DNA of 64,000 nucleotides from Prorocentrum cordatum. Lineage: Eukaryota. A program made the translations under genes and the position numbers. The notes below the pieces were generated by a model. That model searched no databases, was not told the origin of the DNA, and saw only the letters and a list, made by a program, of their open reading frames with translations. The stretch is from assembly GCA_963575745.1 (NCBI GenBank), contig CAUYUJ010000037.1:310001-374000 (forward strand). The letters run 5' to 3'. Every line of letters begins with the position of its first letter. Position 1 is the first letter of the stretch. Shown piece by piece: positions 8,443 through 57,439 of this stretch.

Positions 8443-8623
8443 CTGATGATGATGATGATGATGATGATGATGCTGATGCTGATGGTGCTGATTATACTGA
8501 TAATGGTGATGATGATGATGTTGATAAAGATGACGATGATGACGATGATGCTGATGATGATGTTGATGCTGCAGCTGCTGCTGCTGCTGCTGACGACGAC
8601 GATGATGATGATGATGCTGATGG

Positions 8624-8676
<53 letters not shown>

Positions 8677-8683
8677 CTGATTC

Positions 8684-8753
<70 letters not shown>

Positions 8754-8755
8754 CA
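8205..8755. repeat. (GAT)n microsatellite; another at 25940-26355
   Basis: Direct inspection. Confidence 0.95.
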
Positions 8756-9239
8756 GGTGATCTTGATGAGGTGATCTTGATGGTGAGCCTGATACGGGGG
8801 AGGAAAAGAGAGGGTGAGGCGCTCTTTCCTGCGTGGGGGCATCCAGAAAAAAACAAGAAGCCCGCTTGGGATGTGGAGCAAACCTCCGCCTCGATGTTTC
8901 GAGACTGGATGCCCAGGTAATTTCAGCCCGTCCCACCCCTCGTGTTGCCCCGCGGCCTTCTCCCGAGGCCGCCCAACCTCCCCGCGGCACGCCCTGGGCG
9001 CGCCCCCCCCTCTGCGCCTTGCCACCCGCAGGCCGAGCAGCAAGAGGCGCCTGGCACCTCCGAGGAGACGGCGGCCTCGCTGGGGGGAGGGGGGGAAGCA
9101 GGGGGGTCCACGCGAGGTACCGCCTGCAGGCCACAGATCTTGCGCATCAGGTCCGAGGCAGCAGGAAGGCGGTGGTTCAGTTGGCTGCGCAGTCTGCCGT
9201 CCGCGCTCAGCCGTGGGCCCGGAAGCAAGGCGAGTAGAG

Positions 9240-14494: not shown

Positions 14495-14690
14495 TCGAAG
14501 AGGACAAATAACAACATAAACATTCGGAACTCCGTGCGGATTTCTTGCATCGGCGCTGCGCCCCTTTGGCGGCGCCTCTGGCACTGCCCCTGGTGCGCTC
14601 CTCGAGCCAGAGAGGGTGGTACAGCACCGATCCAAGACATCCGCGCGGACCTCCGACAGTTTATGCTTATGCAGTTTTTTGGCATATCTC
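14495..14690. mobile_element. Family-A palindromic MITE copy (intergenic)
   Basis: Arms CGGAACTCCGTGCGGATTTCTTGCATCGGCGCTG / CAGCACCGATCCAAGACATCCGCGCGGACCTCCG; flanks TACAT/TCCAT. Confidence 0.75.
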
Positions 14691-16134: not shown

Positions 16135-16638
16135 CTCCCAGGGCGCCCCGTGCGCTCCCAAAGCCGCACGGAAGCTTCATCCGGATCAAGGAGGAAACGG
16201 AGTCCTGGCGGCAGAAAGTTCCGATCAGCTTTTAACCTGGGCTAGGCCAGCGCCGATCCAAGCGCCGATCCAAGCAATCCGCGTGCACCTGCGACAAGTG
16301 ATGTTTATGCAGCTCGCTGCTACTCTGTAAGAGGATGCGGAGGAATCGACAAGGGCCGAGGAGGCGGGGGAGGATGATACGGACGTCCGGCGTAGTGATC
16401 TTTTCACCGCGTGGCTTCCCAGAGGCCTGGACCTCTTCCCAGGGACAGTTTTTTCATCCGAACTGGCCTTTTGAGTGCCTGGGGCCCACGAGAGGCCGCA
16501 AAACCGGCAAACACATCCCATCGCGAACGCCGAGGAAACCAGGGTAGGAGGAGGAGGAGGAGGAGGAGGAGGAGGAGGAGGAGGAGGAGGAGGAGGAGGA
16601 GGAGGAGGAGGAGGAAAAGGAGGAGGAGGAGGAGGAGG

Positions 16639-24500: not shown

Positions 24501-26290
24501 TCCAGGTCCCGTTGTCTTTGAGTATACGCAAGATCTTGCGTGACATTGCACGAGGCATATCGCCCAGCGTCTGCCGTTTGAATTCCGCGTCGAGTTTGAA
24601 CCGGAAGGAAGGCATTTGGAGGGATCTCAGTTCAACCGGGCAACATTCGAGATCAGCTCCTGTGACAGGTGGAGGCCCGAATGAGAGCGGACGCGAAGGT
24701 CACCGCGCGCAGTGCAGTACTGGCGCAGGATAGCCCCGTCATTCAGAATTGCAGCGATGCGTATCTCCGGTACCTCGAGAACGCTAGCGACGAGAATATG
24801 GAGGATGGGGTGATGGGCCACGATCGGGAGGGAACAGAGCCTCCCAATATGTTATGCATGAATCAACGCCGTAGAGAATTACACGTTCGCGGGTTCTGCC
24901 TTGGCGTCGGGGCAGTCGGCGCTCCAGCGTCTCAACGTCATGATAAAAGGGGGGAGTGGCTCAGCTCAGCTTGCGAGTCAACACGTGCGGGATCAAAACG
25001 TGCGCAGTTATCCCGATGTACAGGTCCAACGCCAAGAATAAAGTTCAGCGACATGTGCATTTCATCGGCCACATAGCCGTCATGGCGACGTCAGGGCACG
25101 AGGTCCTTTTCCGTTCGAGTCGTACAAATCTGCTCTATAGTCTTTAGCTTGGGAACAAGTGCAACTGAACTCGACTGAGGTGCCGGCAGCAAGCGCGCGG
25201 GCAGGAGAAATGGTGAACTGGTGCAGGTCAACGCCTTGCTGGTCCGATTTCTTCGGGCCGTGGAGGTCAACAACAATCCGGACGGGCGCCAAGGGGCAAT
25301 ATGGCCAGGTAGGCCAAGGGCAAGGGCAATGGAAAGGATAACAAGAACAAGGACGTGGAGGAGGGCAATGACTGGGCCAAGGACGCAGACAAATAGGACG
25401 GGGTCGAGGACGTGGAATGGAGGAGGAGGAGGGAGAATGCAGGGCAAAGCTCCGTCGTCTCATCGCAAGAGGCGCAGGTAAAAAGGGAGTCAGCATGCAC
25501 GCTGTGCCGCCACCTTGAGGGACCGCTCGGGAATGGGGGTCGTCGCCAACGCGGCCGACCGCAGAATGAGCGGGCTTCGCCGCCGAGTATGTATTACTCT
25601 TTTGATTTCTACACTCGTCCTGAGCTCGCTGTGTTTCTTAGTCACATCTCATATGTAATCTGCATACGCGCACTTCGTAACAGCACGAGAGCCAGAGCGC
25701 GGTCACTAGATTGTGCAGGCATCCCACATCGCAGCGTAGCATGGATTCTCCTCAGGAGTGCTTGGGTGGGGCGAAGGAAAAGGAGGAGGAAGACGAGGAC
25801 GAGGACGAGGACGTGCACGAGGAGGAGGAGGACAAGGGTGATAACGAGGAAACAAGGATGAAGAGAACGAAGAAGACGAGACGGAGGAGGACGAGGGCGA
25901 GGGGAGGACCACCAACAGGGCGACGAGGACGAGGCCGACGATGAGGATGACAAGGAAACGGAAGATGGCGGTGATGGTGATGGTGATGGTGATGGTGATG
26001 GTGATGGTGATGGTGATGGTGATGGTAATAGTGGTAGTGGCGACCATGGTGGTGGCGATTATACTAATAATGTGGGTGGTGATAGGGATGCGGATGATTA
26101 AGAGGAGGATGAGGACGGGAATCATGATGATGATGATGCTGATGCTGATGCTGATGCTGATGATGATGATGATGATGATGATGATGCTGATGATGATGAT
26201 GATGAGACTTCCGATGGTGCCCATGATGGCGGTGATGCTGATGATGATGATGATGATGATGCTGCTGCTGATGCTGCTGCTGCTGCTGAT

Positions 26291-26354
<64 letters not shown>

Positions 26355-28619
26355 GGGCGTGGGGGAGGAGGAAGACGAGGACGAAGACGAGGAGGAGGAG
26401 GAGGAGGAGGAGGGGGAGGACGTGTCGGCCGAGGTGGCGACGTGCGGAGGAGGCGCGCGACCAGCTGCGCGAGGGGCCCACGAGCGAGGCTGCTGTCCGC
26501 GCCACCGCCGCTGCCGGCCGCGGCCCGAGCCTGCGAGAGCCTGGCCTGCAGATCACCCCGCGCAGGACCGTGCAGATTCGCTATCGGGGGGCCTATCGCC
26601 GACTTATTGGCCTTGCATCTCCGATGTCAACTTGATGCCTCTCCCTGCTGAGCCTGTCCCCCCCCCCACCGTTGCCCCTCAAGACATGCTCGTCCATCCG
26701 CTGGGGGTCCGATATTCCTGGGCCTCGGGAGGCGACGCAAATGGGTATGTTCTGGTTGTGCTTGGGGCCCAACGTTTTCCAAAATGTGTACAACGTGTTG
26801 CGCATGCATGCACTTCGTCCTTTGCCACTATTTGACAGAGGACGGCCCTCCATTCATCTTACTGTTTCAACACATTCACTGATGGATGGCCGTCCTGTTT
26901 CACGACAGGGTTTTCGGTGGATTTCTCATTGCACTTTATTGAAACGCTTCGCTCATTCCGCAGGTCCATCTAACGCGCAGTTGTCGACTGACAGAGTGGT
27001 CTTTCGCGGTGCGGAGCTGTAGGGGCGGCGGCTGTTTTTTGTTTTTTTTTGTTTTTTTTTTATCAGGCTTTGCGTTCGGCATGTGAGGCTTCTTGGTGGC
27101 CGCTGCGGGAGTCTTGAACGCGTCGCGGGCCGTCTGGAAGCGTTTTGCCTGTGGGGACTCTTTCGGGAAGCCTCTTGGTGGCTTCGTGGGGACTCTTAAA
27201 CGCGTCGGGTTGTTGACACTTGCTTGCGTGCTCGGGGGGGCACTTGAGGTGCCTCCTGGGGCCGATTGGGGGCTATCCTGAGGGCCTGTTGGGGGCCTCT
27301 CAGGGGCCTCTCAGGGGCCTCTTAGGGGCCTCTTGGGGGCTCCAGGGGGCTTCTTAGGGCCGAGGGGCCGAAATGTTGTTTCGTGTTCCCCCCTTGGACC
27401 TCTCTTGGGGCGTTTTTGGGGCCTTCTTGGGCCGTCTTGGAGGCCACTCTTGGGCCGTCTTGGAGCCCTCTTGGGTCGTCTTGGGCTCTTTAGGTGGCCT
27501 CTTGGGCCCTCTTCGGGCGGTCTTGGGGGCCTCTTGAGCCGTCTTGGGGTGTCGGGAAGGGGAAAAGGTGGAAACGCGAAAACTTCTCCAAAACCTAAGG
27601 AAACAACAATGATGTTAGCCTCTTGGGGCCCTCTTGAGAGTGCCTTTGGAGGCCTCTTGGGCCGTCTGGGTGCCATCGTGGGCGTCTTGGAGCGATGTTG
27701 TGGCATCTCGGAGCTCTCTTGTATCATCTTGAGGGGCTCTTGGCGGCCTCTTGGCCTTTCTTGGGGCTCTCTGGACGGCCTTGAGGGCGGCGCCCAGGAG
27801 GAAAACCATCTCTGACCCGAGTCGTCAAGGACTTGCCCGGGGTACTTTTCGTCCTGGGACCCCCAGGGGCCGCCCCGCACGCGCGCGAAGTAGAATTACT
27901 GTAAAGCAGTTTCCGTAGATCTCAGCACGCCTCTGGCCCGTTGGGCCGGCGAATTGCGATCCTACCCGTCGTAATTATCATAGCTAGATATACATATTTG
28001 AGAGCGGGGCTCTCGCTTGCTTGCATGACCCCATGAGGCTCCTCTCACAGGGGGGGTCCCTGAGTTTGAAGGAAGTCACGCGTGCAGGGACTTCTCATGA
28101 TGAGGAGACTTGGGACTGAAGGTAGCGTCGCTGATGCACCCTAGGCTCACTCCCGCCCCACCTGCTCCTCCTCGCCCGCCTCCTCTGTTGTCCTCCTCCT
28201 CCTCCTGCCTTGTCCGTCTAAGCCTCTAGATCAAGCCACTCGGTTCGGACCACAGGGGCAGCCGAATCAAGAACAGAGACACCATCCCAGACATCCGACG
28301 TCTGGGTTTTTTGAACATGGGGTTTCCAGAAGTGCCGACCCTTTCCCTCGGGCTGGTTTTTCATCCCAGGCATTTGTTCTACGCGAGGGCCCCCACGGGC
28401 TGAACATTGCAGCAGACCTCCCATCGCGATTTGTCACGACGCGAGGTGGTCTGGGCCCCCCCCCTCCTCCGAAGACGCCGAGATTCAAGGGGCGCCCCGC
28501 GGGGCGCCGCCGCGGGCGCCGCGCCCGCCGCGCCCGCACTGGCGCCGTCGCTGGCAGCCTGCAGCCTGCGGGCGGCCTCCCGCCGCCTGCGGCTTGCAGC
28601 CCGCAGCTGGCTGGCCGAG

Positions 28620-30818
28620 ATGTGGTCCGCCGTGGCGGGCAGCCTGCGGCGCGCCGCCGCGGGCGCCGCGCTCGCGGCCCCGGCGGCGCGGCCCGCGCTG
28701 CACCGGTTGGCGGCGGCGCGCGGCCTGCTGGCGCGCGCGGCCGTGGCCTCCCGCGGCGCCCGCGAGGTCGGCGCTGGCCGCGGCGGCCGCTCCGCACGCG
28801 CCGCCCCGCCCTGGCGCAGGCGCCACTGGGCTGCGGCTCGGGGCCGTGCTGGCGGCGGCGGCGGCGGCGACGGCGGCGGCGGCGGCGGCGACGGCGGCGG
28901 CGGCGGCGGCGACGGCGGATGCGTCATCAGGGTGAGGGTCGGGGTCGCGCTGGCGGTGGCAGCGGGCGCGGCGACTGCAGAGGCGTCACCAGGGAGGCGC
29001 TCGGAGCCGTGCTCCTGGCTTTGCGGCGATGTGTGTTTTGTCACTGGGCGTTTTTCCGCCGAGTTCGGTCCCCGGGACCGTCGAAACACGGCTCAAGATA
29101 GAAAGCCCGTCCCTAGGAGTGTGTCAAGACTTCTGGGGGCGCCGCATGGGAAAAAACACGACATCGGATCTCTGGGACCGGCGTTTTCATTAGATGTTGG
29201 CCTTCTGGGGGCCGTTCTCGAGGCCCTGTCTGCGGATCGGGGATGGAAGATCTCCCCAGGCGAAGGGATCGGATCCTCTGAGGCGGATCATATCGTCGGA
29301 TGTCTGAGCTGGCGGCGGCAGCGGCAGCAGCGGCAGCGGCGGCAGCGGCAGCGGCGGCAGCGGCGGCGTCGTCGACGGCGTCACTGGGCCGCGGCTCGGG
29401 GCCGTGCTGGCGGCGGCGGCGACGGCAACGACGGTGGCGGCAACTGCTGCGGTGAAGGCAGCCGCGGCGGCGGCGACGGCGGCGGCGACGGCGGCGGCGA
29501 CGGCGGCGGCGACGGCGGCGGCGGCATCGGCGGCGGCGGCAATGGCGACGGCGGCGACGGCGACGGCATTGGCGGAGGCGTCACTGGGCCAGGGCGGGCC
29601 GCGCTGACGGCGGCGACGGCGGCGACCACGGCGGCGGACACGGCGGCGACGGCGGCGGCGACGGCGGCGGCGGCGGCGACGGCGGAGGCGTCACCGGGCC
29701 GGGGCTCGGGGCCGTGCGGAGCAAGCAGACGAAGAGGCAGTCCTACTACAAGCCCGCCCGCTCTGACCCGTGCGGGCAGCGAGAGAATAGGAAGGCGCGC
29801 ATCGGGGTGAAGGCGCTGCCCTCCGAGTACGTGGAGGCAGTCAAAGCAGAAACAACTGCGTAAACATCGGTTTCCGGATCTCAGCGCGGGTTTCTCGGAT
29901 CGGCGCCGTGCCCCCCTGGCGGCGCCTCCGTCGCCGCCCCTGGCGCGCGGGGGTCAAGCGCCAATCTAAGAAATCCGTGCGGAGCTCCGACGGTTTATGA
30001 TTTTTGTCTCTTGCTTCTAGGCAGGCCGTATGATCTGCCAGCACCGGAAGTTCCTTCCCAAGAACCCTCACGTCACACGGAAGCGGCACTTCAAGACGTA
30101 TCCAGGAGTCAATGTGAAGGTGATGAAGAACACCTCATTGCAGGCAGCATGCAGCGGCCGCATCAAGATGACACACGACGTTAAGCGCGATGTCATGATC
30201 ATGAATGTGTTGGCGGAGCCGAGGGAGGAGTTACTGCGGGAGGAATTGTGGCGGTACCGCACAGAGCATGTGGAGAGCATGGAGGAGAACAGATATGTTT
30301 GCAGCCTGCGCGCGAAAGCCTGGCCAGTCTTCGGCAAGAGTGGCGGCTGGGTCAACCCTCCAGAGGGTCCCAAGCCGATGCGCTGCCGCATCTCTTACGG
30401 CAATGACATTTGGAACAACATGAAAGTGCAGGACCCCATGGAGATCGAGCCCTACGCCTACCCTCTGCCGCGGAGCTCCAGGGCAACGGGCCGAATAGGC
30501 TCAGGGGGGGACACATCGACCCCCAACCGTCCGTGCATCGCCGATAGGGGCCCGATAGACCACGCCGCCCCGGAACGCGCTGTTTCGCGATCGAGGGCCT
30601 ATCGCCAATCAGTCGGCGGTGCATCGCCGATTCCAGCTCGATGTTCGCAACCTGAACCAGTCTACCCTCAATGCTGCCCTATCAGGAGCCTCTTGGAGAG
30701 GCATATCAAGAAGGTTCGCCGACGCCACGCTGGGGTGCCAGACGAGGAAAACGATCCGGAGTTCAGCCTGAAGGACACGCGGTACCACTTGTTCAAGGGC
30801 CAGGCAGCACAGAGGTGA
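28620..30818 (+). CDS. Mitochondrial ribosomal protein bL27m-like (alveolate extended type). Putative Ala/Arg-rich transit-peptide exon from 28620 (its junction unresolved), then exons ~29688-29836, 30021-30472, 30686-30818
   Basis: Spliced frame reads SKQTKRQSYYKPARSDPCGQRENRKARIGVKALPSEYVE|AGRMICQHRKF...KTYPGVNVKVMKNTSLQAACSGRIKMTHD...YPLPR|SLLERHIKK. This matches the L27 pattern (GVK...V.AG.II.RQR...YPG.NV...L.A...G.VK). Introns are GC-AG 29837-30020 and GA-AG 30473-30685. N-terminus MWSAVAGSLRRAAAGAA looks like a presequence. Confidence 0.78.
29841..30019. mobile_element. Family-A MITE forming GC-AG intron 29837-30020 of the bL27-like gene
   Basis: Palindromic arms as in other copies; TSD GGCAG at 29836-29840 and 30020-30024. 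Confidence 0.85.
30477..30684. mobile_element. Family-B TIR element forming GA-AG intron 30473-30685 of the bL27-like gene
   Basis: TSD GGAGC; terminal AGGGCA/TGCCCT; internal similarity to 45704-45926. Confidence 0.75.
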
Positions 30819-30826
30819 TCGACAAT

Positions 30827-30984
30827 TCGAACAACAAAACTGCATAAACAATTTTTCGGAGCGCCGCGCGGATTTCTTGGCTCTGCGATGGGCCCCCCTG
30901 CGCGCCAGGAGGGGTGTCCAGTGCCGATCCAAGAAATCCGCGCGGAGCTCTGAAATCTTTGTTTATGCCGTTTTCGTTCCTCTA
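30827..30984. mobile_element. Family-A MITE just downstream of the bL27-like stop codon
   Basis: Palindromic arms; TSD ACAAT/ACACT. Confidence 0.8.
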
Positions 30985-31659
30985 ACACTGGGGCCCACGG
31001 ACATGATTCAGACGAACTGATGTGGAGCCTGGCAGTGCCTCGTACTGACCACGTTCACCTTTTCATCGGATGCAGATTCGGGCTACGTAGTTTCACACGC
31101 GAGACTCTGCGAAAGGCGCATATGCGCGAGCGGTCTGAATTCTTCCTGCGTCGTTGCTCTCTTACCGCCCGTTTTCGCTTCGCGCGCCTTTGCTACGCAC
31201 ACCGCTGCTCGTTCTCCCCTTGTCTGCTGCTGCCGGCCTGGCACATCCCGCAGCCGGCGTTCGCTAGGTTCGCACCGCGTTGCCGCGGCGGCGGCGGAAA
31301 TGCCGACGTCGAACGATCTGCGCTGTCGGACAGCCGCGGTCGTTCAAGGTCGTTCAAGGTTGAACGATCCTCGCCGGGTGCGAGGCAGCCACTCGCACGA
31401 TTGTCCCCGCCCACCGTCGGTGCTCTTGCAAAAGCTGGTGCATGCAGCTGGTTTCGGTAAACAGCTGCATGCAGCTGGTTCGCCACCATCCCCCCGCTCT
31501 GCTACCCCGCACTTTGTCCGTTCCGAGACCCAGACGCACGATGTCATGTTTTTCCTACAATCCTGTGGTATTGCGTCCACCTTTTGAAGAGACAGCACCC
31601 CGCGCTTCTCCTTCTCACGTCCTTCTCCCTCCTCCCATCCCCCTGCCCCATTTCGGCAT

Positions 31660-32400
31660 ACCCCTCACTTGGCCCCACAGGGAACTCCACCGAAGGCACT
31701 AGCGGCAGGGCCCGCGTGGCGGCCCCGCATCAGATTCACGCACCCCTCACACGTTTCGTGGCCCCGTAAGGAGCTCCACCGAAAGTCCCAGCGGCAGGGT
31801 CCGCATGGCGGCCCCGCACAAATTTCGGCACACCCCTCAACACGTTTTGTGGCCCTGTAGGGAGCTCCACCGAAGGCCCCAGCAGCATTGTCCGCATTGC
31901 GGCCCCGCCCTATGTCAGCACACCCGTCACACGTTTCGCGGCCCCGTAACGAATTCCACGGAAGGCTTCAGTGGCAAGGTCCGGATGGCGACCCCGCACC
32001 CGATTCGGCACACCCCTCACACGTTCTGTGGCCCCACAGGGAGCTCTACCGACGGCCCCAGCGGCAGGGTCCGCGTGGCGGCCGCACAATTTCGGCACAC
32101 CCCTCAAAAGTTGTTTGGCTCCACAGGGAGCTTCACCGAAGGCGATAGCGGCAGGGTCCGCATGGCGGCCCCGCATCCATGTCGGCACACCCCTCACACG
32201 CGCTTCGTGGCGCCATAGGGGGCTCCACCAGAGGCCCCAGCCGCAGAGTCCGCATGGCGGCCCCGCACCAGATGTCAGCACACCCCTCACACGCGTCGTG
32301 GCCCCATAAGGAGCTCCATCGCAGGCCGCAGCGGCACGGTCCGCATGGCGGCCCCGCACCCGATGTCGGTAGACCCCTCACACGTTTCGTTTCCCCATGG
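31660..32400 (+). repeat. ~90-bp tandem repeat (GGCCCCACAGGGAGCTCCACCGAAGGCCCCAGCGGCAGGGTCCGCATGGCGGCCCCGC...); further copies at 38450-38570 and 39770-39940
   Basis: About 8 units visible. Confidence 0.8.
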
Positions 32401-33971
32401 GGACCCGCGCCTCCTTCGTCCCACCTGCCTTGCGGCGCTCGCACCCACATATGGTCGGGTCCTTCGCCCGGACTGACTTTTCATCCTGAGTCGTTTGTGG
32501 ACGGTCCCAGGGCCCGGCGAGGGCCCCTAGAGGCCGAAAACAGAACAACAGCAACAACACTAATCATTGTAGTAATTTCCGCTCCTATTTGTCCGCGTGC
32601 CATTCATCACATCTATCCTAAACACTCGGTTCCCGCCCTTTTTGTCTTCGATCATACCCTCCTTGGGGGCATATCTTCCTTACCTACCACGTGCATGTGG
32701 TGCAGCCCCGAAAACAGCGGAAGAAGGGGCGCATGGAAGAGGGAGGGAGAAGGCTGGAGCACGAGAGAAATTTGCAGGAGTGGGGCTAGGAGCAGAAAGC
32801 ACGTGGCAGAGCCAGACGGGCAGACCGGGCGGGCAGACCCTAGCGGGGGCGGGTCGGGAAGGCGGGCCCCGGCGGCCAGGTCGAGCAGGCGGGCTGCTGA
32901 AGCGTGCCCTTGAGTTCCAGACCCTTTCCCCATGTGTGTTTCATCCAGAGCCTTTGTATAACGGTCCTGGAGCCTAGCGAGGGCCTACAGGAGCCGAAAG
33001 CGGAGAGGAACTTCCGTATTGCTGCTTCAGTACGTGAGAGGTCTGGTGAGGTGCCATCCACCAGAGTGCAAACGGGAGAGTTTGGGAGCTTCAGGAGGCT
33101 TCGTGGAAGGGCGGGATCTTAAAAGATCTGCCACGGACTCTGTGCTTGGCCCCCAGGTGCCTCCTCGTGCCTACGGTGTGCCTGCCGCTTGTCTGAAGGG
33201 GGGGCTCCGAAGGGGGGGGCTCCAGGTCGGACGGGGCTAGGACGAGGATACATCTGTTCCAGAGCGTAGCGTTCCATGCAGGACGCTCTGAGAAGGCCGC
33301 GACGCCCGAGACATCCTCCAGAGCCTGCGAATCTCAGAGTTTATTGATTTTTCCTCACCCGAATTCGTCTTCGTCGTGTCTTCGTCTTACCAGGTGCCTG
33401 CTCCTCCGCGGCCTTCTTCACGCGGCTTTCCCCTAGCAGTGTTCACACTCGGGGCTTATGACTTCTCTTCTTCGGATTCTGGGCCGGGCTGTCGGCTTCC
33501 AGCCGGCCTGAGGCCGCCCGTCGCCGCCCGTCGCCGCCGTCCTTGGTCCCGATTTGAATTGTGCGAGGCTCGCACTGTGCATTGCTTTGCATTGCGCTGA
33601 GCACTGCGTTGCGTTGTTTTGCATTGCTCTACTTGGCTCTGCACTGTGCTGCATTGCTTTGCGCCGCACAGATTGCACCACAGGGATTGCGCCACCCAGG
33701 TCCCACCGCATACTGTCTAGGACATGACCGTTTGGGGTCCATGCTGGCTGACACCTTGGGTGTACATGTAGATATACGCACATACAGATTCAAACATGCA
33801 TCTGTTTTCACATATGCACATGTACTTGCTGATGTACGCATGCATATATAAATGAGTGTATAAATGTATCTATATGTGCATCTAGATGGGGGTGTGACGT
33901 GCGTGGGCCCATGTAACGGAGACTGTATGGCCGTCGTGCTTGTGGCATACGAGCGCACACGGCAAACAAAC

Positions 33972-33987
33972 GCCATTCTGGTTCAAG
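33972..33987 (+). other. Relict spliced leader upstream of the channel gene (possible older second relic at 33999-34015)
   Basis: GCCATTCTGGTTCAAG (14/16 to GCCATTTTGGCTCAAG) ends 66 nt before ATG 34054. The weaker AGCCACGGTTGGCCAAG follows. Confidence 0.75.
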
Positions 33988-34053
33988 GGTCGTGGCGGAG
34001 CCACGGTTGGCCAAGGCCGCGCCGTGGCCGGGCCGTGGCCAGCCGCCGCGCCC

Positions 34054-36533
34054 ATGGTCACCGCGGTCAGCACCGTGGGCTTCGTGCCCACGGGCAACAA
34101 GCAGAAGGCGAAGCCGAACACCGTCAACAGCCTGCTCAATGAGAGGTCGTTCAAGGGTGGCTTCAGGTCTCGCTCGCATGGCGCACCGGGGCAGGTGGCA
34201 GGCCCGGGCGGCGCTGCAGCTGGGATGGAGCAGTTGGTAGCTTCGAACATCCTGGACGGGTTGGCGTTCAATTGTTGGGTCACGTTCACGGTGACTGTCA
34301 ACATCATCGTCATCAGCCTGGAGCAGGACCTCTGTCCGAGCGGCAGCAGCCCCGTCGACTGCACGAGCTGGTTCCTGCTCGAGCTTCTCTTCGGGATGCT
34401 CTTCCTAGGGGAGCTGGCGATTCGCATCTTCTTCACCCAGCCCAAGAGGAAATTTTTCAACGATTTGTGGAATGTCATGGACATGATCCTCATCATCGCC
34501 GCTTTCCTCGACACCCTGGTCTTCGCCCCGATCGGCATCGGCGGCTTTATACGCTACTTCACCGTGTTGCGCGCTCTCCGCGCGATCAAGCTGGTGCGCC
34601 TGGTGCAGATGTTCCCCCTCTTCCGCGAGCTTTGGCTGCTCGTTGGCGGCCTCTCCAACTCGCTGAAGGCGCTGGGCTGGGTCGGGCTCATCGTGGTAAT
34701 GGTCCTGTACGTCTGCGGCATCGTGGTCACGATGGAGATCGGGAAGAACGACGACGTGTATGCCATCGGTCCGTCGTACGACGGGCAGGTGTCGGGGGCC
34801 GATTCATGGCCACCGCCCCCGCGCGCGTACCTTGTGCGCGACCAGCTTGTTTGTGGGGACGGTGTGCATAAGTCACGTCCCCAGGGGATGCCCCACTTTT
34901 GTACACAACCCCCGCTCCGCGGCCTTGTGCCGGACCAGCTTGTGCCGGAGGGGGGAGGTGGGAGGGCGGGAAGAAGGATGACGAGGACAGCACAAAACCC
35001 GTTTCCCCAAGGTGTGGCCGTACAAGAAGTATTTCGGGACAGTTTGGCGCTCCATGTTCACGCTCTTCCAGGTGCTCACGCTGGACAGCTGGTGCGACGG
35101 CATCGTCCGGCACGTGGTCTACCGGCAACCGTACATGGGCGTCTTCTTCGTGGTATTTCTGCTGCTGACCGCCTTCGGCCTCATCTCGAGGGAGAGAACA
35201 CGGCATAACCATCAACTCTCGGAGCTCCGCGCAGATGTTTTGGATCGGCGCTGGGCGCCCCTTGGCGGCGCCTCCGGCGCCGCCCCTGTCGCGCTCCGCG
35301 CGCCAGGGAGGAGGGCCCAGCGCTGGTCTGAGAAGTCCGCGCGGAGGTCCGAGAGCCATGCAGGTTGACGCCGTTGTGCCTCCCTCGACCCTCAACGTGA
35401 TCATCGGGATCATCGTGGAGAACACCCTGGCCGCGGCGCAGGTCACAGACCGCCGCGTGGAGGAGCGGGAGGCGCAGCTCCGCAGGGCCGCGGTGGAGCA
35501 CCTGTCCGTGATCCTGGAGAAGTCGGACGTGGCCCGCCTCGGGGAGATCTCGCTGGAGGAGCTGAAGGCGGCGAACAACAGCAACATAGTCAAGGATCGA
35601 GGGAGAACAATCGGGGAACAACCACTGACATGAACGTACAAACTCAGAGGTCCGCACGGATTTCTCGGATCGGCGCTGGACCACCCTCCCTGGCGCGCGG
35701 AGCGCGCCAGGGGCGGCGCCGAAGGCGCCGCCAGGGGGACCCCAGCGCGGACCTCCGAGTTGTTATGTTTATGTCATTGCTTGTTCCCCTAATTAACCCA
35801 CCGCCTCCCCACCGACCCAGCAGGTTGCGAGGGGCGGTGGACGTCCTCTTCCCAGACCCCCTCGCGTCAGAATGAACATCACAACGGAGGCTGTTTGGCC
35901 GTCTTCGTCATCCAGGGGGGGAGGTCTGAATTACTGGGCCCTGGGCCGTCAAGAAACGACCCTGCATGAAAACCCGTCCCTGGGAAGGGGTAGCGTCGAA
36001 GACTAAAACGCTGCAAAAACATAGTTTCTCGGAGCTCCGCGCGGATTTCTTAGATTTGCGCTGGACCCCCCCCCCCGCGGCGCCTCCAGCGCCGCCCCTG
36101 GCGAGCTCCGCTCGCCAGAGGGGGTCCAGCGCCGATCCAGGAAATCCGCGCGGAGCTCCCAGAGTTAATGCGTATGCGATTTTTTAATGTAAAGGAGAAG
36201 TTCGACAGGATCGGCATGAGCTTCGATGAAATCGAAGAGATCTTCAAGCTGCTGGACTACGAGCGGCGGGGTCGCGTGGAGCTGAAGCGGCTGGCCGCAT
36301 CCTGCTTGGAGCTCGTGGGCGGGGCCAAGCGGAGAGACATCGCCCAGGTGGAGGTCACCATTGGGTCGCTCGCGCAGCACCTCGACTCGCTGGATTCGAA
36401 ATTCTCAAGAATCGAGTCCGAGGTGCAGGGCCTCACGAGCATGGCGGAGGAGTTCGTGCAGACGACCGTGCGCCTGCTCACTGGCTTCGACGGAAACGAG
36501 AAGCCAGCGGTGGCGGGCGCGTCGGGGCGCTGA
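34054..36533 (+). CDS. Single-domain (6TM) voltage-gated cation channel, Ion_trans family (BacNav/EukCat-like), with degenerate C-terminal EF-hand-like motifs and a coiled-coil tail. Exons 34054-34788, 35012-35181, 35390-35594, 36195-36533 (~482 aa)
   Basis: Translation shows S1-S3 (ELAIRI, FFNDLWNVMD), S4 with periodic basic residues (RYFTVLRALRAIKLVRLV), S4-S5 linker FRELWLLVGGL, pore FGTVWRSMFTLFQVLTLDSW and S6 AFGLLNVIIGIIVENT after joining. EF-like segments are DVARLGEISLEEL and FKLLDYERRGRVEL. Intron 1 is GT-AG, intron 3 is GA-AG, intron 2 is non-canonical. Confidence 0.9.
35186..35388. mobile_element. Family-A MITE forming non-canonical intron 2 of the channel gene
   Basis: Perfect 9-bp TIR TCGAGGGAG/CTCCCTCGA; degenerate TSD TCATC/CCCTC. 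Confidence 0.85.
35597..36191. mobile_element. Composite of two family-A MITEs (~35597-35792, ~35996-36191) forming GA-AG intron 3 of the channel gene
   Basis: Two palindromic copies separated by ~200 nt; single TSD AAGGA at 35592-35596 and 36192-36196. Confidence 0.8.
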
Positions 36534-37890
36534 GGACAAGGCTACTTCGCGACAGGCTCCGATCAGCGCTCCGGTTTCTGTGCCCACTGCCTTCATAATT
36601 ATGTGTTTCACGCTGGCTGCCTTATCTTAGCTTTGCGCTGCGCGCACCCTCACCAGGGGAGCGGGGACGGGTGGAGAAGGGGAGGAGAGAGATCCGAGGT
36701 GTCGGTGGTCTTTTTCACACGCGGGGCCCCAGGCAGTCCGTCCCTCTCCGCAGGGACGGCGTGTTTCCGTGCTGCGCCAGTGTTTGGACGGTCCCAGGGC
36801 CCGGCGAGAGATCCCCTAGATGCCGACAACGAAGCGGGAGACCCTCGTTTTTCTGTCAAGGCCTTGGAGGGCTGGGGAGGAGAGGGGACGGGTGCGGCGC
36901 CGCAGGGTGGCATTTGCTGAATTCTTCTGGTCCGGAGTTGTCCTTGTCATGGCACGGGGGGAAGGCGGAGCCCTGCGCGCTGGTTGCAGGGCCTTAAGCA
37001 CATGCAGGTGATGGAGGATCTCTGGGCGCCAATGAGGATGTTGCAACTCAGGATCTTGCAAGATCCGTCTGGAGTAAGCGGATGATTGACAGCTCTTCGA
37101 CCCACCGATGCAGTTTTCTCGGGCGCGCCAATGGCCTGGTTTGGCTAAAGTCCTCGTTTACGGCGCCCTGAGGTGCGAGGACCGATGATCGATATTTTCG
37201 GACGAACTTGGCCCTTTTCGGGCCTCCAGGGGAGGTCTTGTCGCCATAGCTGGATCCCCTCGAAATTCTAGTGAAAGCGCACACCAGGACAGGTCTGGAG
37301 ATCTACGTTCGACCCCGTGGCTGAGGGGAGGAGGAAGGAGGCGCCCCCTCTTCCCATCCTGAGGAGGGAGGAGGACACGCCTCCTTCCCTCTCATCCTCA
37401 TCCCTCCTCCTGGGGAGGGAGGGGGGCCCTCCGCATCCTCATCCCTTGTCTCCCCCCTCGACGAGCACTCCTGCGCCCTCCCCCGTCTGCATCCTCGACC
37501 GCAGGCGCCGCCCTCGCCCCGAAGCCAGCCTGAACGGACTCTGCGACCGGGCCGCACTTCCTTAACTTAGCCCCCAGCTGCGCGCCCGTGCGTCGGGCCT
37601 CCCCGGAGACGCGCGCACGCGCCACTTGCCACCTGTTCTCGAGGGGCGACAAAAAAGGCATGCTCCCATTCTGTCGGAGGTCTCTCGTGCGCGCCCGCGC
37701 GTCGGGCCTCCCCGGAGGCGCGCGCACGCGCCACCTCGCCGCCTGTGCTCGAGGGGTGGCAGAAAAGGCGTGCTCCTCTCCTGTCGGAGGCCCGAGCGGA
37801 TGCCCGGGGTCGGCGCCAGAGCCGCGTTACTGCCCCTCCCCTCCGGCGGAGCCTCCGGATGGGCGGTTCGATGCCGACCCAAGCATCGCA

Positions 37891-38086
37891 GGCCTAGAGA
37901 TTGACACCAACACCAAGATCGGCGGTGTGCCTCCATCCAGGGAAGACGATCCCGATCTCGGTGATGGTGGTAATATTCTGGCTTCCAAGGTGGCCGAAAT
38001 ATTACCACCAACACCGAAATCTAAGATCACCTTCCCCCTGTGGAGGCAAACCCCTTGTGTTGGTGTTGGTGCCCATTTCCAGGCCT
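37891..38086. repeat. ~200-bp fold-back (MITE-like) palindrome
   Basis: CACCAACACCAAG...GGTGATGGTGGTAATATT mirrored by AATATTACCACCAACACCG...CTTGTGTTGGTGTTGGTG. Confidence 0.65.
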
Positions 38087-38574
38087 CCAAAAGCAGTCCT
38101 CGCGGCACTACGTTGCGAGAGTGCAGCCCGCGGAAGTCATCAGGAGCTCCCCCCTTCCAGCAAAAGGGTAACACCTCCCCGCACCGGAAGCATTACTTTC
38201 GCAACTGGAGGATGATGCGGCTCTCGCCCCAGCGCCGCACACATTCGTTCCAAACACTTGCAAGAGCTTCACGGCTGGAGGGCGGGTCGTTTCAAAATGT
38301 GGCTCTCGCCGTAGTGCCGCGCACATTTGTGTGAAACAGGTGTAAGAGTTTCACGTGTTGAGGGAAGGTCAATAGTTTGAGACAGGCCTGGAGGGAGCGA
38401 TAATTTGTTGGGGGGCTGTTTGGCACGGTGCTAAAGCTATCGTTCGACACGCTTCGTGGCCCCATAGGGAGCTCCACAGTCCGCATGGCGGCGCCGTCCC
38501 ATTTTGGCACACCCATCACACGTGTCGTGGCCTCATAGGGAGCTCCACCTCAGGTCCCAGTGGCGCAGTCCGCG

Positions 38575-39600
38575 TTGTGTACATGTCCTCCCCTGATGTT
38601 GTTTGCGCATGCCGCTCTGTTGTTCATTTTCTGCGTGGTGTGCCTGCTTGCCGCGCCAGACGTGGCCGAGCCCCGTGTGCCGCCATTTCGTCTTCATTTT
38701 CTTCCCGCCCTGTGCGCGGCCGTTCCGTGTTCAGTTTTTCTCTGGCTGTTGTTGTTCTTGATACCGCTTCGTGACACATTGTTCCGCATAGCGTGCCTGC
38801 TTGACACGCCGAAGGTGGCCGAGCCCCTCCCGCCGCCGCCATGTTTACGTCAATGTCCTTCCCTCCTTGTGCGCGGCCGTGTTGTGTCCATTTCCCTCCC
38901 TGCTTTGTTTTCTTCCATGCCGCTTTCTGACACATCGGCACGCCGAACATGGCCGAGCCCCGTGCGCCGCTATTTTGACTTCACTTTCTTCCCGCCCAGT
39001 GCGCGGCCGTTCTGTGTCCATTTCCTTCTCTGCTGTTCCCACCCCCATGCCGCTTTATGACACATTGTTTTGCGCAGTGTGCCTGCTTGCTACGCCGAAC
39101 GTGGCCGAGCCCCGTGCGCCGCCATTTCGTGTCAATTTTCTTCCCGCCCTGAGCGCGGCCGTGTTGTGCCAATTTCCTTCCCTGTTGTGTTTCCCCAATG
39201 CAGCTGGCACGAGGGTCAAGAATAACTTCGGCGTCGCAGGGGTACCCTCATGTTCTCCGCCTGGTGGCCCCCAGCCCTATGATGTTCCCTGTTTTGGGCG
39301 TGTCCGTGGGGCCCTTGGCCTTCGACGAAGGGGCTCGCGTTCTTGATCCACGTTCTGGTGTTGTTACATGTTATTTTGCGCAGCGTGCTATCTTTCCGCG
39401 CCGAATGTGGCCGAGCCCCGTGCGCCGCCATTCTGTCTCTATTTTCTTCCCGCCTTGTGCGCGGCCGTTCCGTGTCCATTTCCTTCCTTGCTGCTTTCTT
39501 TCCCCACGCAGCCGTTTTACACACTGTTTTGCGTAGCGTGCTTGCTTGCCACGCCGAATGTGGCCAAGCCCCGCGCGCCGCCATGTCATGTCCAGTTCTT
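38575..39600 (+). repeat. Degenerate ~130-160-bp tandem repeat (GTGGCCGAGCCCCGTGCGCCGCCATT core)
   Basis: Core at 38662, 38815, 38950, 39101, 39407 and 39560. Confidence 0.7.
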
Positions 39601-45600: not shown

Positions 45601-45703
45601 TGAACCAACGCCCCCACCGTGCTAGTATGTCCTGCTGCTTCCCCGATCCGACCGAACGATCCCACGCCGACTGACCGCCCCTGCATCGAGTGTCCGCCTC
45701 TCA

Positions 45704-45926
45704 GGGGCAACCTTAGGGGGGGGGGGATGGGCAGTGCCTTTGGGGGTGGGGGCACATCAAACCCCGGTCGCCCATTCGTCGCCGACAGGGGCCCGAGAAC
45801 CCACCCCGCCCAGCACCGTGCGGATTCGCCGTCGGCTGCCAAGCGCCGATCCACTGGCGATGGATCGCCGATTCCAGCTCGATGCTTTTCCCACCTGAGC
45901 CGGTCCCCCCCCTAAACGTTGCCCCA
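45704..45926. mobile_element. Family-B TIR element
   Basis: TIR GGGGCAAC/GTTGCCCC; shares TCGCCGA.AGGGGCCCGA and ATCGCCGATTCCAGCTCGATG with 30477-30684. Confidence 0.7.
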
Positions 45927-46263
45927 CATCGTCTCTCCCTGCAGGTTTGTCCGCCAGGGCCTGGAGGCCATCGTCGCCGCCGCGCTCGTGGACGCGCTGG
46001 GCGCCGTGCGGCAGGTTGCCGTGTGCCTCACCAGCGTCTTGGTGCCTGGATTTAGCCTCCGCTCTCTTTCTGAAAGTTGGTTTGCGGCCGCTAGCGAACC
46101 CTACACCTGCGGGTCCAATCGACGCTGGGGGTATCGGACACCCCCGCTAGCGTTCGCTGGTTTGCATTCGTCCTTCGATTTCTGAGCTTCAGTCGACTTT
46201 TTCAGGAAGCTGATCTTCAGGGGTAGGGCTCACATGTTGCCTATTGTGGCTAGCCGCATGAAG

Positions 46264-46472
46264 TCGCAGAAGAAACCGCCCAAAACATGAGCTTTCGGAT
46301 CTCCGCGCGAATGTCTTGGATCGGTGCTGGGGCCCCCCTGGCGGCGCCTCAGGCGCCGCACCTGGCGCACTCCGAGCGCCAAGGTGGAGGGGCCCATGGC
46401 CGATCCGAGAACTCCGCGCGGAGCTCGGACAGTTTATACTGATGATGCTTCCGCTCCTCCTCTGCGATTCGA
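46264..46472. mobile_element. Family-A MITE
   Basis: Palindromic arms; TSD TGAAG/GGAAG. Confidence 0.78.
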
Positions 46473-57369: not shown

Positions 57370-57439
57370 GCTGCCACGGGCGGCGGAGGCCCCCGGCCGC
57401 CGCCCATTCTGCAGAGGGGGGGGCTGCCCGCTTGAGGAG

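What the first reader, a model, noticed from the sequence alone, without database searches (positions are those of the whole stretch)
29836..36196. All five resolvable introns in two neighbouring genes are T...A-ended insertions with 5-bp TSDs
Seen: TSD/element pairs are GGCAG (29841-30019, GC-AG), GGAGC (30477-30684, GA-AG), AGGTG (34792-35009, GT-AG), TCATC/CCCTC (35186-35388, non-canonical) and AAGGA (35597-36191, GA-AG). At least three dissimilar sequences share this geometry. Donors come from the TSD itself, and in two cases the acceptor AG is the element's last A plus the first G of the TSD. Non-coding family-A copies (14495, 30827, 46264) also show 4/5-matching 5-bp flanks. Established: Introner elements are known in dinoflagellates. 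Inference: one transposase type mobilises several families, and relaxed GC/GA donors let many insertions be spliced cleanly.
Basis: partly seen in the sequence, partly recalled or inferred. Interest (0 to 1): 0.7.

Follow-up and report, generated by a model that had tools for sequence, protein, structure and literature searches.

The report
Transposon-made introns in a dinoflagellate
All six introns of two neighbouring dinoflagellate genes look like small inserted mobile elements that are cut out of the messenger RNA, a known way for introns to arise, but two of them are removed without the usual splice signals.

Summary
All five stretches sit at the stated coordinates. Four have perfect 5-bp flanking repeats and T...A ends; I4 has 3 of 5. 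RNA contigs from 4 runs skip exactly element + 5 nt at each. Spliced products align without gaps to homologues.

Amendments:
- I1, I4 and both halves of I5 belong to one palindromic family (P). I2 belongs to a second family (Q). I3 has no relative, inverted repeat or hairpin.
- I5 is a composite, not one element.
- The 'non-coding' copy at 30827 is also spliced, as a 3'UTR intron at 30831-30980.
- I4 and the UTR intron have no G[TCA]..AG reading. Both are the strongest complete hairpins.
- The 4/5 flank matches claimed at 14495 and 46264 are not robust.

These are introner-type MITE insertions. Splice sites come from the duplicated target, and in two cases also from the element's last A. Such elements are already described in dinoflagellates (Roy 2020, Farhat 2021, Mendez 2015).

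'One transposase' stays untested: no genome is held and the window has no transposase.

The two non-canonical excisions resemble Amoebophrya introners. Here they sit in what looks like a core dinoflagellate, and RT artefact or empty-site gene copies are not excluded.

Verdict: new member of a known kind.

The parts
29694..31201 (+). Transcript 1 (ribosomal protein L27 family). Exons 29694-29836, 30021-30472, 30686-30830 and 30981-31201; stop codon 30817-30819.
   Evidence: RNA contig pieces. Translation. Weak Pfam L27 match: E 0.0024, 18.3 bits, below the 20.5 cut-off. Homologues carry PF01016, with 77% identity to an Alexandrium catenella protein.
29837..30020 (+). Intron 1, GC..AG, phase 0. 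Family P element 29841-30019 plus one copy of TSD GGCAG (29836-29840 / 30020-30024). Acceptor is element A30019 + TSD G30020.
   Evidence: (skip 184, ambiguity 6, 4 of 4 runs). Hairpin -93.3 kcal/mol, z -3.5.
30473..30685 (+). Intron 2, GA..AG, phase 2. Family Q element 30477-30684 plus TSD GGAGC. Acceptor is element A30684 + TSD G30685. The intron is 213 nt and open in frame.
   Evidence: (skip 213, ambiguity 5). Q relatives at 45701-45928 and 26550-26681. Fold z -1.6, not significant. ORF 30021-30818 reads through it.
30831..30980 (+). 3'UTR intron, AC..CC, no boundary ambiguity. It lies 4 nt inside each end of family P element 30827-30984 (flanks ACAAT/ACACT).
   Evidence: skip 150, ambiguity 0, 4 of 4 runs.. 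Hairpin -94.6 kcal/mol, z -11.3, stem base 30829:30979.
33983..36665 (+). Transcript 2 (single-domain voltage-gated cation channel, Ion_trans). Exons 33983-34788, 35012-35183, 35392-35594 and 36195-36665; ATG at 34054.
   Evidence: Ion_trans E 7.9e-22. Homologues 90.7% to 56% identical, gap-free at all 3 junctions in 5 of 5.
34789..35011 (+). Intron 3, GT..AG, phase 0. Stretch 34792-35009 plus repeat AGGTG(T). No relative, no terminal inverted repeat, no hairpin.
   Evidence: (skip 223, ambiguity 6). Only self hit plus a 26-nt match. Best end-to-end inverted match 11 nt. Fold z +0.55.
35184..35391 (+). Intron 4, non-canonical (TC..CC; may lie up to 2 nt to the right), phase 1. Family P element 35186-35388 with TIR TCGAGGGAG/CTCCCTCGA. 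Flanks TCATC/CCCTC, whose two mismatches lie in the excised part.
   Evidence: (skip 208, ambiguity 2, 4 of 4 runs). Whole element is one hairpin, -147.3 kcal/mol, z -9.8, base pair 35186:35388. Junction restores the S6 sequence FGLINVIIGIIVEN found in homologues.
35595..36194 (+). Intron 5, GA..AG, phase 0, composite. I4-type left end and hairpin 35597-35792 (its right arm lacks about 16 terminal nt). Unrelated 35793-35995. Family P copy 35996-36191. Outer repeat AAGGA.
   Evidence: (skip 600, ambiguity 5). Two separate hairpins, z -13.3.
14495..14688 (.). Family P copy, not known to be spliced. Right end uncertain.
46264..46467 (.). Family P copy with TIR TCGCAGAAGA/TCGCAGAGGA. Flanks TGAAG/TTCGA do not match.
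45701..45928 (.). Family Q copy (TCAGGGGCAAC...GTTGCCCCACA) inside the long intron 43628-45944. Flanks GCCTC/TCGTC, 3 of 5.
26550..26681 (.). Family Q copy truncated on the left. Right end ...GTTGCCCCTCA.
37886..38090 (.). Family R hairpin element. T...A ends, perfect 5-bp TSD AAGCA (37881-37885 / 38091-38095), outside any known splice context.
   Evidence: Found by the unbiased scan. Sequence. Hairpin -117.8 kcal/mol, z -12.3. High multi-variant RNA contig depth (tables 2 and 3).

Best explanation
The two genes (an L27-family ribosomal protein and a single-domain voltage-gated cation channel) lie in dinoflagellate-type nuclear DNA. Their six introns are insertions of short non-autonomous DNA-transposon-like elements (MITEs), that is, introner elements.

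The elements end in 5'-T...A-3' and duplicate 5 bp of target. Removing the element plus one target copy restores the uninterrupted coding sequence.

Where the target reads GGHNN, AGGHN or NAGGH, the spliceosome finds G[T/C/A] in the left target copy. It finds AG either in the right copy, or as the element's last A plus the first G of the right copy. This gives GC-AG, GA-AG and GT-AG introns (I1, I2, I3, I5).

Two copies of the palindromic family P whose targets do not fit (I4 in the coding sequence, and the copy in the 3'UTR of gene 1) are still removed from poly(A) RNA. They are cut at non-G..AG positions within a few nucleotides of the base of a very stable hairpin.

Shown: positions, repeats, family membership, hairpins, RNA junctions, and exact restoration of conserved protein sequence.

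Inferred: transposition as the origin, selection for splice-competent targets, and that the two non-canonical removals happen in the cell and are guided by the hairpin bringing the ends together.
For: - Element + 5 nt is skipped at all 5 sites, and 150 nt at the UTR copy, in 4 of 4 RNA runs from 4 studies. The contigs run unbroken through all junctions.
- Perfect 5-bp repeats occur at 4 of 5 sites. A fifth perfect case lies outside splice context at 37886-38090.
- Family P has 7 aligned copies in 64 kb plus fragments. Similarity starts at the T that follows the left repeat. Family Q has 3 copies.
- TIR and hairpin statistics: I4 z -9.8, UTR copy z -11.3, I5 z -13.3, R z -12.3.
- All 4 perfect targets allow G[TCA]..AG.
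- Junctions are gap-free against 5 of 5 channel homologues. They are also gap-free against L27 homologues, read by eye.
- The two mismatches in I4's right target copy lie in the excised part, as expected for an old, tolerated insertion.
- The same kind of element is published for dinoflagellates. Roy 2020 preprint: 4-nt TSD in Symbiodinium; 3, 4, 5 and 8 nt in Polarella, with splice sites recruited from the TSD. Farhat 2021: inverted plus 3-5 nt direct repeats at non-canonical introns.
Against: - I3 has no relative in the window, no TIR and no hairpin. Its repeat sits in an AG|G context where 5 nt or more arises in 25% of random pairs.
- I5's outer ends belong to two different copies, so its AAGGA repeat needs either composite transposition or coincidence.
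- Non-intronic P and Q copies show poor flank matches: 1 of 5 and 3 of 5.
- A window-wide scan for 5-bp repeat + TIR found no excess of T...A cases: 10 against a control mean of 6.6, and 8 of 60 controls reached 10.
- No transposase was found and no copy outside the window.
- Gain, meaning absence in orthologues, could not be tested.
Confidence: 0.8

Rival explanations
1. The two non-canonical 'introns' (I4 and the 3'UTR copy) are not removed in the cell. The junctions would then arise in one of two ways. Reverse transcriptase may jump across the base of the very stable hairpin during library preparation. Or the transcripts may come from another gene copy or allele that lacks the insertion.
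For: - Both are the most stable complete hairpins, -147.3 and -94.6 kcal/mol.
- I4's junction has a 2-nt microhomology, TC.
- The spliced product equals the empty site, so RNA contigs cannot tell excision from an empty-site copy.
- All runs were contigs, which drop rare variants and give no read-level view.
- Dinoflagellate genes are often multi-copy (general knowledge).
Against: - The same junction is the only path in contigs of 4 of 4 runs from 4 studies. The contigs pass it unbroken, with 0 other letters in 3 of 4 runs. Abundant exon-hairpin boundary reads would be expected to break them.
- The UTR junction has no microhomology.
- The channel reading frame downstream of I4 is intact, and its differences from P0001 are conservative.
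- 2 of the 3 unconstrained positions of I4's right target copy have changed, which suggests an old insertion in a gene that is still kept.
Confidence: 0.3
2. The boundary repeats are not target-site duplications. They would be the 'identically repeated intron boundary' that follows from the dinoflagellate AG|G splice consensus, or from repair of staggered breaks. The repeats inside the introns would have arrived later. This applies mainly to I3, I5 and the long intron 43628-45944.
For: - Under AG|G[ACT]..AG|G, 25% of random pairs share 5 nt or more.
- I3 has no element features.
- I5 is composite.
- The 2.3-kb intron has a 6-nt repeat TGCAGG but no T...A ends.
- Mendez 2015 reports 2-9 nt repeats at all introns examined, without invoking transposons.
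Against: - I2's repeat GGAGC is not in an AG|G context (p about 0.03).
- In I1, I2, I4 and I5 family similarity or the TIR begins exactly next to the repeat.
- The intergenic element R has a perfect non-splice repeat, AAGCA.
- The skipped length is element + 5 in 5 of 5.
Confidence: 0.15
3. Several unrelated transposases, not one, move families P, Q and R. The shared 5-bp repeat and T/A ends would be coincidental or convergent.
For: - Terminal sequences beyond the first T differ: TCGAGGGAG/TCGAAGA, TCCAGGGCAAC and TCGCAGGCC.
- Right ends are heterogeneous.
- Another palindromic element, 40630-40791, has C...G ends and only a GTG flank repeat.
- Roy 2020 finds many TSD lengths in one species.
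Against: - Left ends all read TC followed by a purine-rich stretch ending in G.
- The 5-bp length is shared by 5 perfect cases in 3 families.
Confidence: 0.35

Closest known systems
Introner-like elements of Polarella glacialis and Symbiodinium (Roy et al. 2020 preprint 10.1101/2020.10.14.339549; parts 1-2 of 4 read)
   Same: - Non-autonomous DNA-transposon-like elements that create introns.
- Splice sites are recruited from the TSD in several frames, with GA/GC/GT donors.
- Class 12 has a 5-nt TSD (NAGGH or NNAGG), and I5's AAGGA fits NAGGH.
- Several families occur in one genome.
   Different: - Here the element starts with T (TC...), not the C described for class 12.
- Two introns use GGHNN targets, with the acceptor A supplied by the element's last base. 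One uses AGGHN.
- Symbiodinium elements have 4-nt TSDs.
- Sequence relationship could not be tested, because the preprint's supplementary data are closed.
Amoebophrya introner elements / non-canonical introns (Farhat et al. 2021, PMC7789003; passages read)
   Same: - Introns without GT-AG.
- 8-20 nt inverted repeats pair the two intron ends into a hairpin.
- Short direct repeats lie at the boundaries, and no transposase is inside.
- I4 and the UTR intron fit this picture.
   Different: - GC/GA-AG make up 4 of the 7 introns seen here, against under 3% reported for Amoebophrya (review PMC11453091).
- Proteins are 75-77% identical to Alexandrium and Polarella.
- This therefore looks like a core dinoflagellate.
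- Direct repeats at the actual cut sites are only 2 and 0 nt.
Identically repeated intron boundary, IRIB (Mendez et al. 2015, PMC5032977; passages read)
   Same: 2-9 nt repeated at both intron ends, kept once in the mRNA, and usually containing AGG.
   Different: IRIB was described as a splice-site pattern with no link to repeat families or inverted repeats. I2's repeat has no AGG.
Pattern-defined introner elements in Prorocentrum cordatum and other free-living dinoflagellates (Dougan et al., 10.1101/2022.07.25.501386 and PMC10666404 supplement; passages read)
   Same: - Introns with 8-20 nt inverted and 3-5 nt direct repeats near both ends.
- A high-G+C genome (59.7%), like this window (0.55-0.72 per 2 kb).
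   Different: - Only 2.4% of introns were called, no families or termini were described, and only GT/GC/GA-AG introns were annotated.
- No tool result names the organism of this window.
Nonconventional introns of Euglena (PMC12501133; search listing and abstract start only)
   Same: Introns lacking GT-AG boundaries. As I recall, they are defined by base pairing between the intron ends.
   Different: Unrelated lineage. No transposon link that I know of. Not examined here.

Membership tests
Introner elements (transposon-derived spliceosomal introns) | The intron sequence belongs to a multi-copy repeat family. | tested here: met
   P family: I1, I4, I5a, I5b, the UTR copy, 14495 and 46264. Q family: I2 plus 2 copies. 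Not met for I3, which has no relative in 64 kb.
Introner elements (transposon-derived spliceosomal introns) | The sequence is removed from mature mRNA. | tested here: met
   6 of 6 junctions appear in 4 of 4 RNA runs. These were contigs only, not raw reads.
Introner elements (transposon-derived spliceosomal introns) | A target-site duplication flanks the element, and one copy supplies a splice site. | tested here: met
   4 perfect 5-bp repeats, 1 with 3 of 5 and 1 with 4 of 5. Donors lie in the left copy.
Introner elements (transposon-derived spliceosomal introns) | Recent gain: the site is empty in orthologues or other strains. | not testable with these tools
Introner elements (transposon-derived spliceosomal introns) | Copies create introns on a genomic scale. 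| not testable with these tools
   Only 64 kb was available. Scans of metagenome, viral and prokaryote collections gave 0 true copies.
Polarella ILE class 12 (Roy et al.) | 5-nt TSD of form NAGGH or NNAGG. | tested here: inconclusive
   The length of 5 is met. Only I5 (AAGGA) has that form. I1 and I2 are GGHNN and I3 is AGGHN.
Polarella ILE class 12 (Roy et al.) | The element begins with C, which serves as the second intron base. | tested here: not met
   All elements here begin with T.
Amoebophrya-type non-canonical introners (Farhat et al.) | Boundaries are not GT-AG or any G..AG. | tested here: met
   I4 is TC..CC, CT..CT or TC..TC. The UTR intron is AC..CC.
Amoebophrya-type non-canonical introners (Farhat et al.) | 8-20 nt inverted repeats join the 5' and 3' intron ends. 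| tested here: met
   I4 has a 9-nt perfect TIR and a full-length stem. The UTR stem runs from 30829:30979.
Amoebophrya-type non-canonical introners (Farhat et al.) | 3-5 nt direct repeats overlap the exon/intron boundaries. | tested here: inconclusive
   Exact repeats at the cut are 2 nt (I4) and 0 nt (UTR). Element flanks match 3 of 5 and 4 of 5.
Known DNA-transposon superfamily | A cognate transposase and diagnostic TIR/TSD. | tested here: not met
   Pfam on 81 ORFs of 200 aa or more found RVT_1 at 19707-20465 and, weakly, at 57360-58781, plus Ion_trans. No transposase was found. From recall, I know no superfamily with a 5-bp TSD and T...A ends.

The most novel reading that the evidence does not exclude
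A core (non-parasitic-type) dinoflagellate removes hairpin MITEs from its mRNAs at positions set by the base of the hairpin rather than by G..AG signals. This would let such elements sit in coding sequence at targets that offer no splice site (I4), and be excised even where nothing selects for it (the 3'UTR copy). It would extend the Amoebophrya-type non-canonical introner mechanism beyond Syndiniales. Current dinoflagellate annotations accept only GT/GC/GA-AG, so they would be missing a class of introns.
Probability: 0.4. Interest if true: 0.65.

Novelty: new member of a known kind. Interest (0 to 1): 0.4.

Why it matters
Introners are the best-supported route of large-scale intron gain, and dinoflagellates are the richest case. 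This window gives a compact, RNA-verified example.

- Every intron of two adjacent genes is element-derived.
- One insertion geometry (T...A ends, 5-bp duplication) serves at least three unrelated families.
- The target sequence decides whether a canonical GC/GA/GT-AG intron results.

The practical point is the two hairpin introns without G..AG. If they are real, gene models built with GT/GC/GA-AG only will break such genes. The question of how Amoebophrya-type introns are spliced could then be studied in a free-living dinoflagellate.

Tried and rejected
- More copies elsewhere: a 19-nt core motif of family P was scanned in three collections. Metagenome contigs gave 45 loci, viral contigs 0, and prokaryote genome contigs 44 loci. 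None is a copy: the longest blastn alignment of any of the five introns to the 89 loci was 42 nt.
- Window-wide scan for 5-bp repeat + 9/12 ungapped TIR:
  - It gave 182 raw hits against a mean of 57-58 in Markov controls, inflated by simple repeats.
  - I dropped three simple-repeat zones (8600-8760, 25970-26020, 28380-29700). That left 99 hits, 10 of them T...A, against a control mean of 6.6; 8 of 60 controls reached 10. So there is no enrichment.
  - None of the five introns passes this filter, because their TIRs are gapped or their TSD is imperfect. The scan is insensitive; its one useful product was element R.
- First chance simulation: contaminated by tandem repeats and replaced.
- Rfam on the whole window: 0 matches.
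- Earlier findings of this scan: 4 look-ups, nothing.
- Organism name: cluster look-up of the closest channel proteins gave no organism.
- Helitron reading (5' TC): rejected from recall of the family's features. The 3' ends are not CTRR and target repeats are present.
- Transposase search with TCGAGGGAG or GGGGCAAC ends: TCGAGGGAG occurs only at I4 (both ends) and I5 (left). GGGGCAAC occurs at 5 places, none paired around an ORF.
- Sense versus antisense fold energies: I4 -146.6 vs -135.5, UTR copy -94.6 vs -88.5, other copies mixed. With two cases this is too few to count as evidence for RNA-level selection.
- Joint 36949>37531 (TG..CC, one run, 'between: not known'): no hairpin at its ends. 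Left unexplained.
- Parts of the stretch without RNA cover are not interpreted.

Full report
**What the window is.** G+C is 0.55-0.72 per 2 kb. No whole genome is held. The two genes in the finding lie on the + strand.

Gene 1 (transcript 29694-31201) belongs to the ribosomal protein L27 family.
- Pfam on its largest exon is weak: E 0.0024, 18.3 bits, below the 20.5 cut-off.
- 66 database relatives were found, most carrying PF01016. Named ones are from Alexandrium catenella (77%), Polarella glacialis (75%) and Durusdinium trenchii (50%).

Gene 2 (transcript 33983-36665) is a single-domain voltage-gated cation channel.
- Ion_trans matches at E 7.9e-22.
- Its relatives include Effrenium voratum and a Pelagodinium-labelled transcript.

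Of the 7 introns seen, 4 read GA..AG or GC..AG. Together with the homologues, this makes the DNA dinoflagellate nuclear DNA. It is probably a core dinoflagellate rather than Amoebophrya, for which a review reports under 3% GC/GA-AG. No tool result names the species. The G+C resembles the 59.7% reported for Prorocentrum cordatum, but that is only a resemblance.

**Check of the observation.**
- I1 (29841-30019), I2 (30477-30684), I3 (34792-35009) and I5 (35597-36191) start with T and end with A. Each is flanked by a perfect 5-bp direct repeat: GGCAG, GGAGC, AGGTG and AAGGA.
- I4 (35186-35388) has flanks TCATC/CCCTC (3 of 5) and a perfect 9-nt terminal inverted repeat.
- In I1 and I3 the repeat is actually 6 nt (AGGCAG, AGGTGT). 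One terminal base of each is therefore ambiguous.

I laid RNA contigs of four runs from four studies on 26500-46499.
- In 4 of 4 runs, contigs join across all five sites.
- The skips are 184, 213, 223, 208 and 600 nt, which is element + 5 in every case.
- The contigs run unbroken through all junctions of each transcript.
- These are contigs, not reads, so they show presence of the joined form, not its share.

**A sixth intron.** The same contigs skip 30831-30980 (150 nt, no positional ambiguity) in 4 of 4 runs. This lies after the stop codon of gene 1 (30817-30819). So six of six introns in the two transcripts are built on repeat-like insertions.

**Do the junctions make sense?** The spliced channel protein aligns without gaps at all three junctions to 5 of 5 homologues that are 56-91% identical. 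This includes the S6 segment FGLINVIIGIIVEN across I4. For gene 1, the junctions EYVEA|GRMICQ and PLPRS|LLERH match the homologues. I read this by eye.

**Splice signals.** Because of the repeats, each junction can be drawn in several places.
- A G[T/C/A]..AG reading exists for I1 (GC..AG, 29837-30020), I2 (GA..AG, 30473-30685), I3 (GT..AG, 34789-35011) and I5 (GA..AG, 35595-36194).
- With a T...A element and a 5-bp duplication, only targets of the form GGHNN, AGGHN, NAGGH or NNAGG can give such an intron. By hand I estimate these at about 9-11% of random 5-mers.
- All four perfect repeats are of these forms. This fits survival of insertions only where the spliceosome can remove them exactly.
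- I4 (TC..CC, CT..CT or TC..TC) and the UTR intron (AC..CC) have no such reading on either strand.

**Is the repeat more than chance?** I paired random donor-like and acceptor-like sites from the window. A boundary repeat of 5 nt or more occurs as follows:

| Constraint | p |
|---|---|
| none | 0.007 |
| G[ACT]..AG | 0.014 |
| G[ACT]..AG, then G after the acceptor | 0.032 |
| AG\|G[ACT]..AG\|G | 0.25 |

- I1, I3 and I5 have the strict AG|G context, so each repeat alone is weak evidence.
- The case for duplication rests on other facts:
  - I2's repeat is not in that context.
  - In I1, I2, I4 and I5, family similarity or the TIR starts exactly beside the repeat.
  - An intergenic hairpin element, R (37886-38090), has T...A ends and a perfect repeat AAGCA with no splice context.

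**Families.**
- blastn and alignment show that I1, I4, the left part of I5 (35597-35792), the right part of I5 (35996-36191), the UTR copy, 14495-14688 and 46264-46467 share one palindromic core. I call this family P. Fragments lie at 16258-16313, 28490-28537 and 44316-44365.
- Left ends of P read TCGAAG, TCGAGG, TCAAAG or TCGCAG directly after unrelated flanks.
- I2 belongs to family Q, with copies at 45701-45928 and, truncated, at 26550-26681. Q ends read TC(C)AGGGCAAC...TGCCC..CA.
- I3 has no relative in the window, no terminal inverted repeat (best 11 nt) and no significant fold (z +0.55). Its transposon origin is not shown.
- I5 is composite. It has an I4-type left end and hairpin whose right arm lacks about 16 terminal nt, then about 200 nt of other sequence, then a complete P copy whose right end abuts the repeat. 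Either the two outer ends moved together as one unit, or the AAGGA match is partly coincidence.
- Flank matches of non-intronic copies are poor: 46264-46467 has 1 of 5 and 45701-45928 has 3 of 5. The right end of the 14495 copy is uncertain.

**Hairpins.**

| Stretch | MFE (kcal/mol) | z |
|---|---|---|
| I4 (one hairpin from T35186 to A35388) | -147.3 | -9.8 |
| UTR copy (stem base 30829:30979) | -94.6 | -11.3 |
| I5 (two hairpins) | not listed | -13.3 |
| R | -117.8 | -12.3 |
| I1 | -93.3 | -3.5 |
| I2 | not listed | -1.6 |
| I3 | not listed | +0.55 |

- The two non-canonical introns are thus complete, very stable hairpins, and their cut sites lie within a few nucleotides of the stem base.
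- I4 is cut 2 nt outside the stem on the 5' side and 3 nt outside on the 3' side, or up to 2 nt further right.
- The UTR intron is cut 2 nt inside the stem on the 5' side and 1 nt outside on the 3' side.
- In I4 the amount removed is still element + 5. The two mismatches of the right target copy lie in the removed part. That is what an old 5-bp duplication in a still-functional gene would look like.

**How it most likely works.**
- Short non-autonomous elements with T...A ends insert with a 5-bp duplication.
- At suitable targets, the spliceosome uses G[T/C/A] of the left copy. For the acceptor it uses an AG formed in the right copy, or by the terminal A plus the right copy. Element plus one copy is removed and the reading frame is restored.
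- This is the introner mechanism described for dinoflagellates: 4-nt TSD in Symbiodinium, and 3-, 4-, 5- and 8-nt TSDs with several splice frames in Polarella.
- For I4 and the UTR copy, my preferred reading is removal in the cell, guided by the hairpin bringing the ends together, as proposed for Amoebophrya introners. I put this at about 0.6-0.7 for those two introns and about 0.4 for the full hairpin-positioned mechanism. Whether the spliceosome or another nuclease-ligase pair does the cutting is unknown.

**Rivals.**
- The two non-canonical junctions could come from reverse-transcriptase jumps over the hairpin, or from a gene copy without the insertion.
  - Against this: the junction is the only contig path in four independent studies.
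  - The UTR junction has no microhomology.
  - The channel sequence downstream of I4 is intact and conservatively diverged.
  - Contigs cannot settle it.
- For I3 and the 2.3-kb intron 43628-45944 (GA..AG, 6-nt repeat TGCAGG, not T...A), the repeat may simply be the known 'identically repeated intron boundary'.
- Whether one or several transposases act is open. No DNA transposase is in the window; of 81 ORFs of 200 aa or more scanned, the only hits were RVT_1 twice and Ion_trans once. Another palindromic element at 40630-40791 has different ends.

**Comparison with what is known.**
- The phenomenon is published: Roy et al., Farhat et al., Mendez et al., pattern-level counts in free-living dinoflagellates, and broad surveys.
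- What is specific here:
  - the T...A/5-bp geometry shared by three families;
  - the GGHNN frame, in which the element's last A completes the acceptor;
  - two hairpin introns without G..AG in what looks like a core dinoflagellate.
- In four literature searches I found such non-canonical hairpin introns reported only for Amoebophrya. The library lacks most subscription papers, and I did not see the final Current Biology version of Roy et al. or its data.

**Verdict.** This is a new member of a known kind, of moderate interest. The open point worth following is the non-canonical excision.

Noticed in passing
window 43628-45944: A 2317-nt intron (GA..AG) joined in 2 of 4 RNA runs, with a 6-nt boundary repeat TGCAGG but no T...A ends. 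It contains a family Q copy, a family P core fragment and TA-rich microsatellites.
   Followed up: partly
window 37886-38090: A 205-nt hairpin element (family R) with T...A ends and a perfect 5-bp repeat AAGCA, covered by RNA contigs at high depth with several variant letters. Whether it is spliced is unknown.
   Followed up: partly
window 40630-40791: Another palindromic element (58-nt arms, 72% complementary) with C...G ends (CTCATGGGCG / CGCTCGTGAG) and only a GTG repeat on its flanks. This is a different insertion geometry from P, Q and R.
   Followed up: partly
window 31670-32403: A tandem array of a 91-nt unit, 8.2 copies, 77% matches, in the spacer between the two genes.
   Followed up: no
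window 29311-29690 and 28851-28918: Long (GGC)n-type simple repeats directly upstream of the first RNA-covered exon of gene 1. The RNA contig of run X1 carries 41 further letters at its 5' end that do not lie on this stretch (an upstream exon or a spliced leader; not seen).
   Followed up: no
window 19707-20465 and 57360-58781: ORFs with reverse-transcriptase (RVT_1) matches: E 6.7e-07 at the cut-off, and E 2.3e-04 below it. These look like retroelement remnants.
   Followed up: no
window 36949-37531: A joint skipping 581 nt with no G..AG reading (TG..CC, GG..CT, GC..TG), seen in one run only and flagged 'between: not known'. There is no hairpin at its ends.
   Followed up: partly
window 30473-30685: Intron 2 is 213 nt, a multiple of three, and has no in-frame stop. 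The ORF 30021-30818 reads straight through it, so retention would add 71 residues rather than break the protein.
   Followed up: no
P0005 vs P0011 (Effrenium voratum channel homologues): The two gene models differ by a 38-residue insertion after ...IIGLEQ, which looks like a retained intron. The window's gene has no intron at that position. This is a hint of differing intron positions between lineages.
   Followed up: no
window 35186-35388 and 30827-30984: The two non-canonically removed copies fold more stably as sense than as antisense RNA (-146.6 vs -135.5 and -94.6 vs -88.5 kcal/mol). The other five P copies show no consistent bias.
   Followed up: partly
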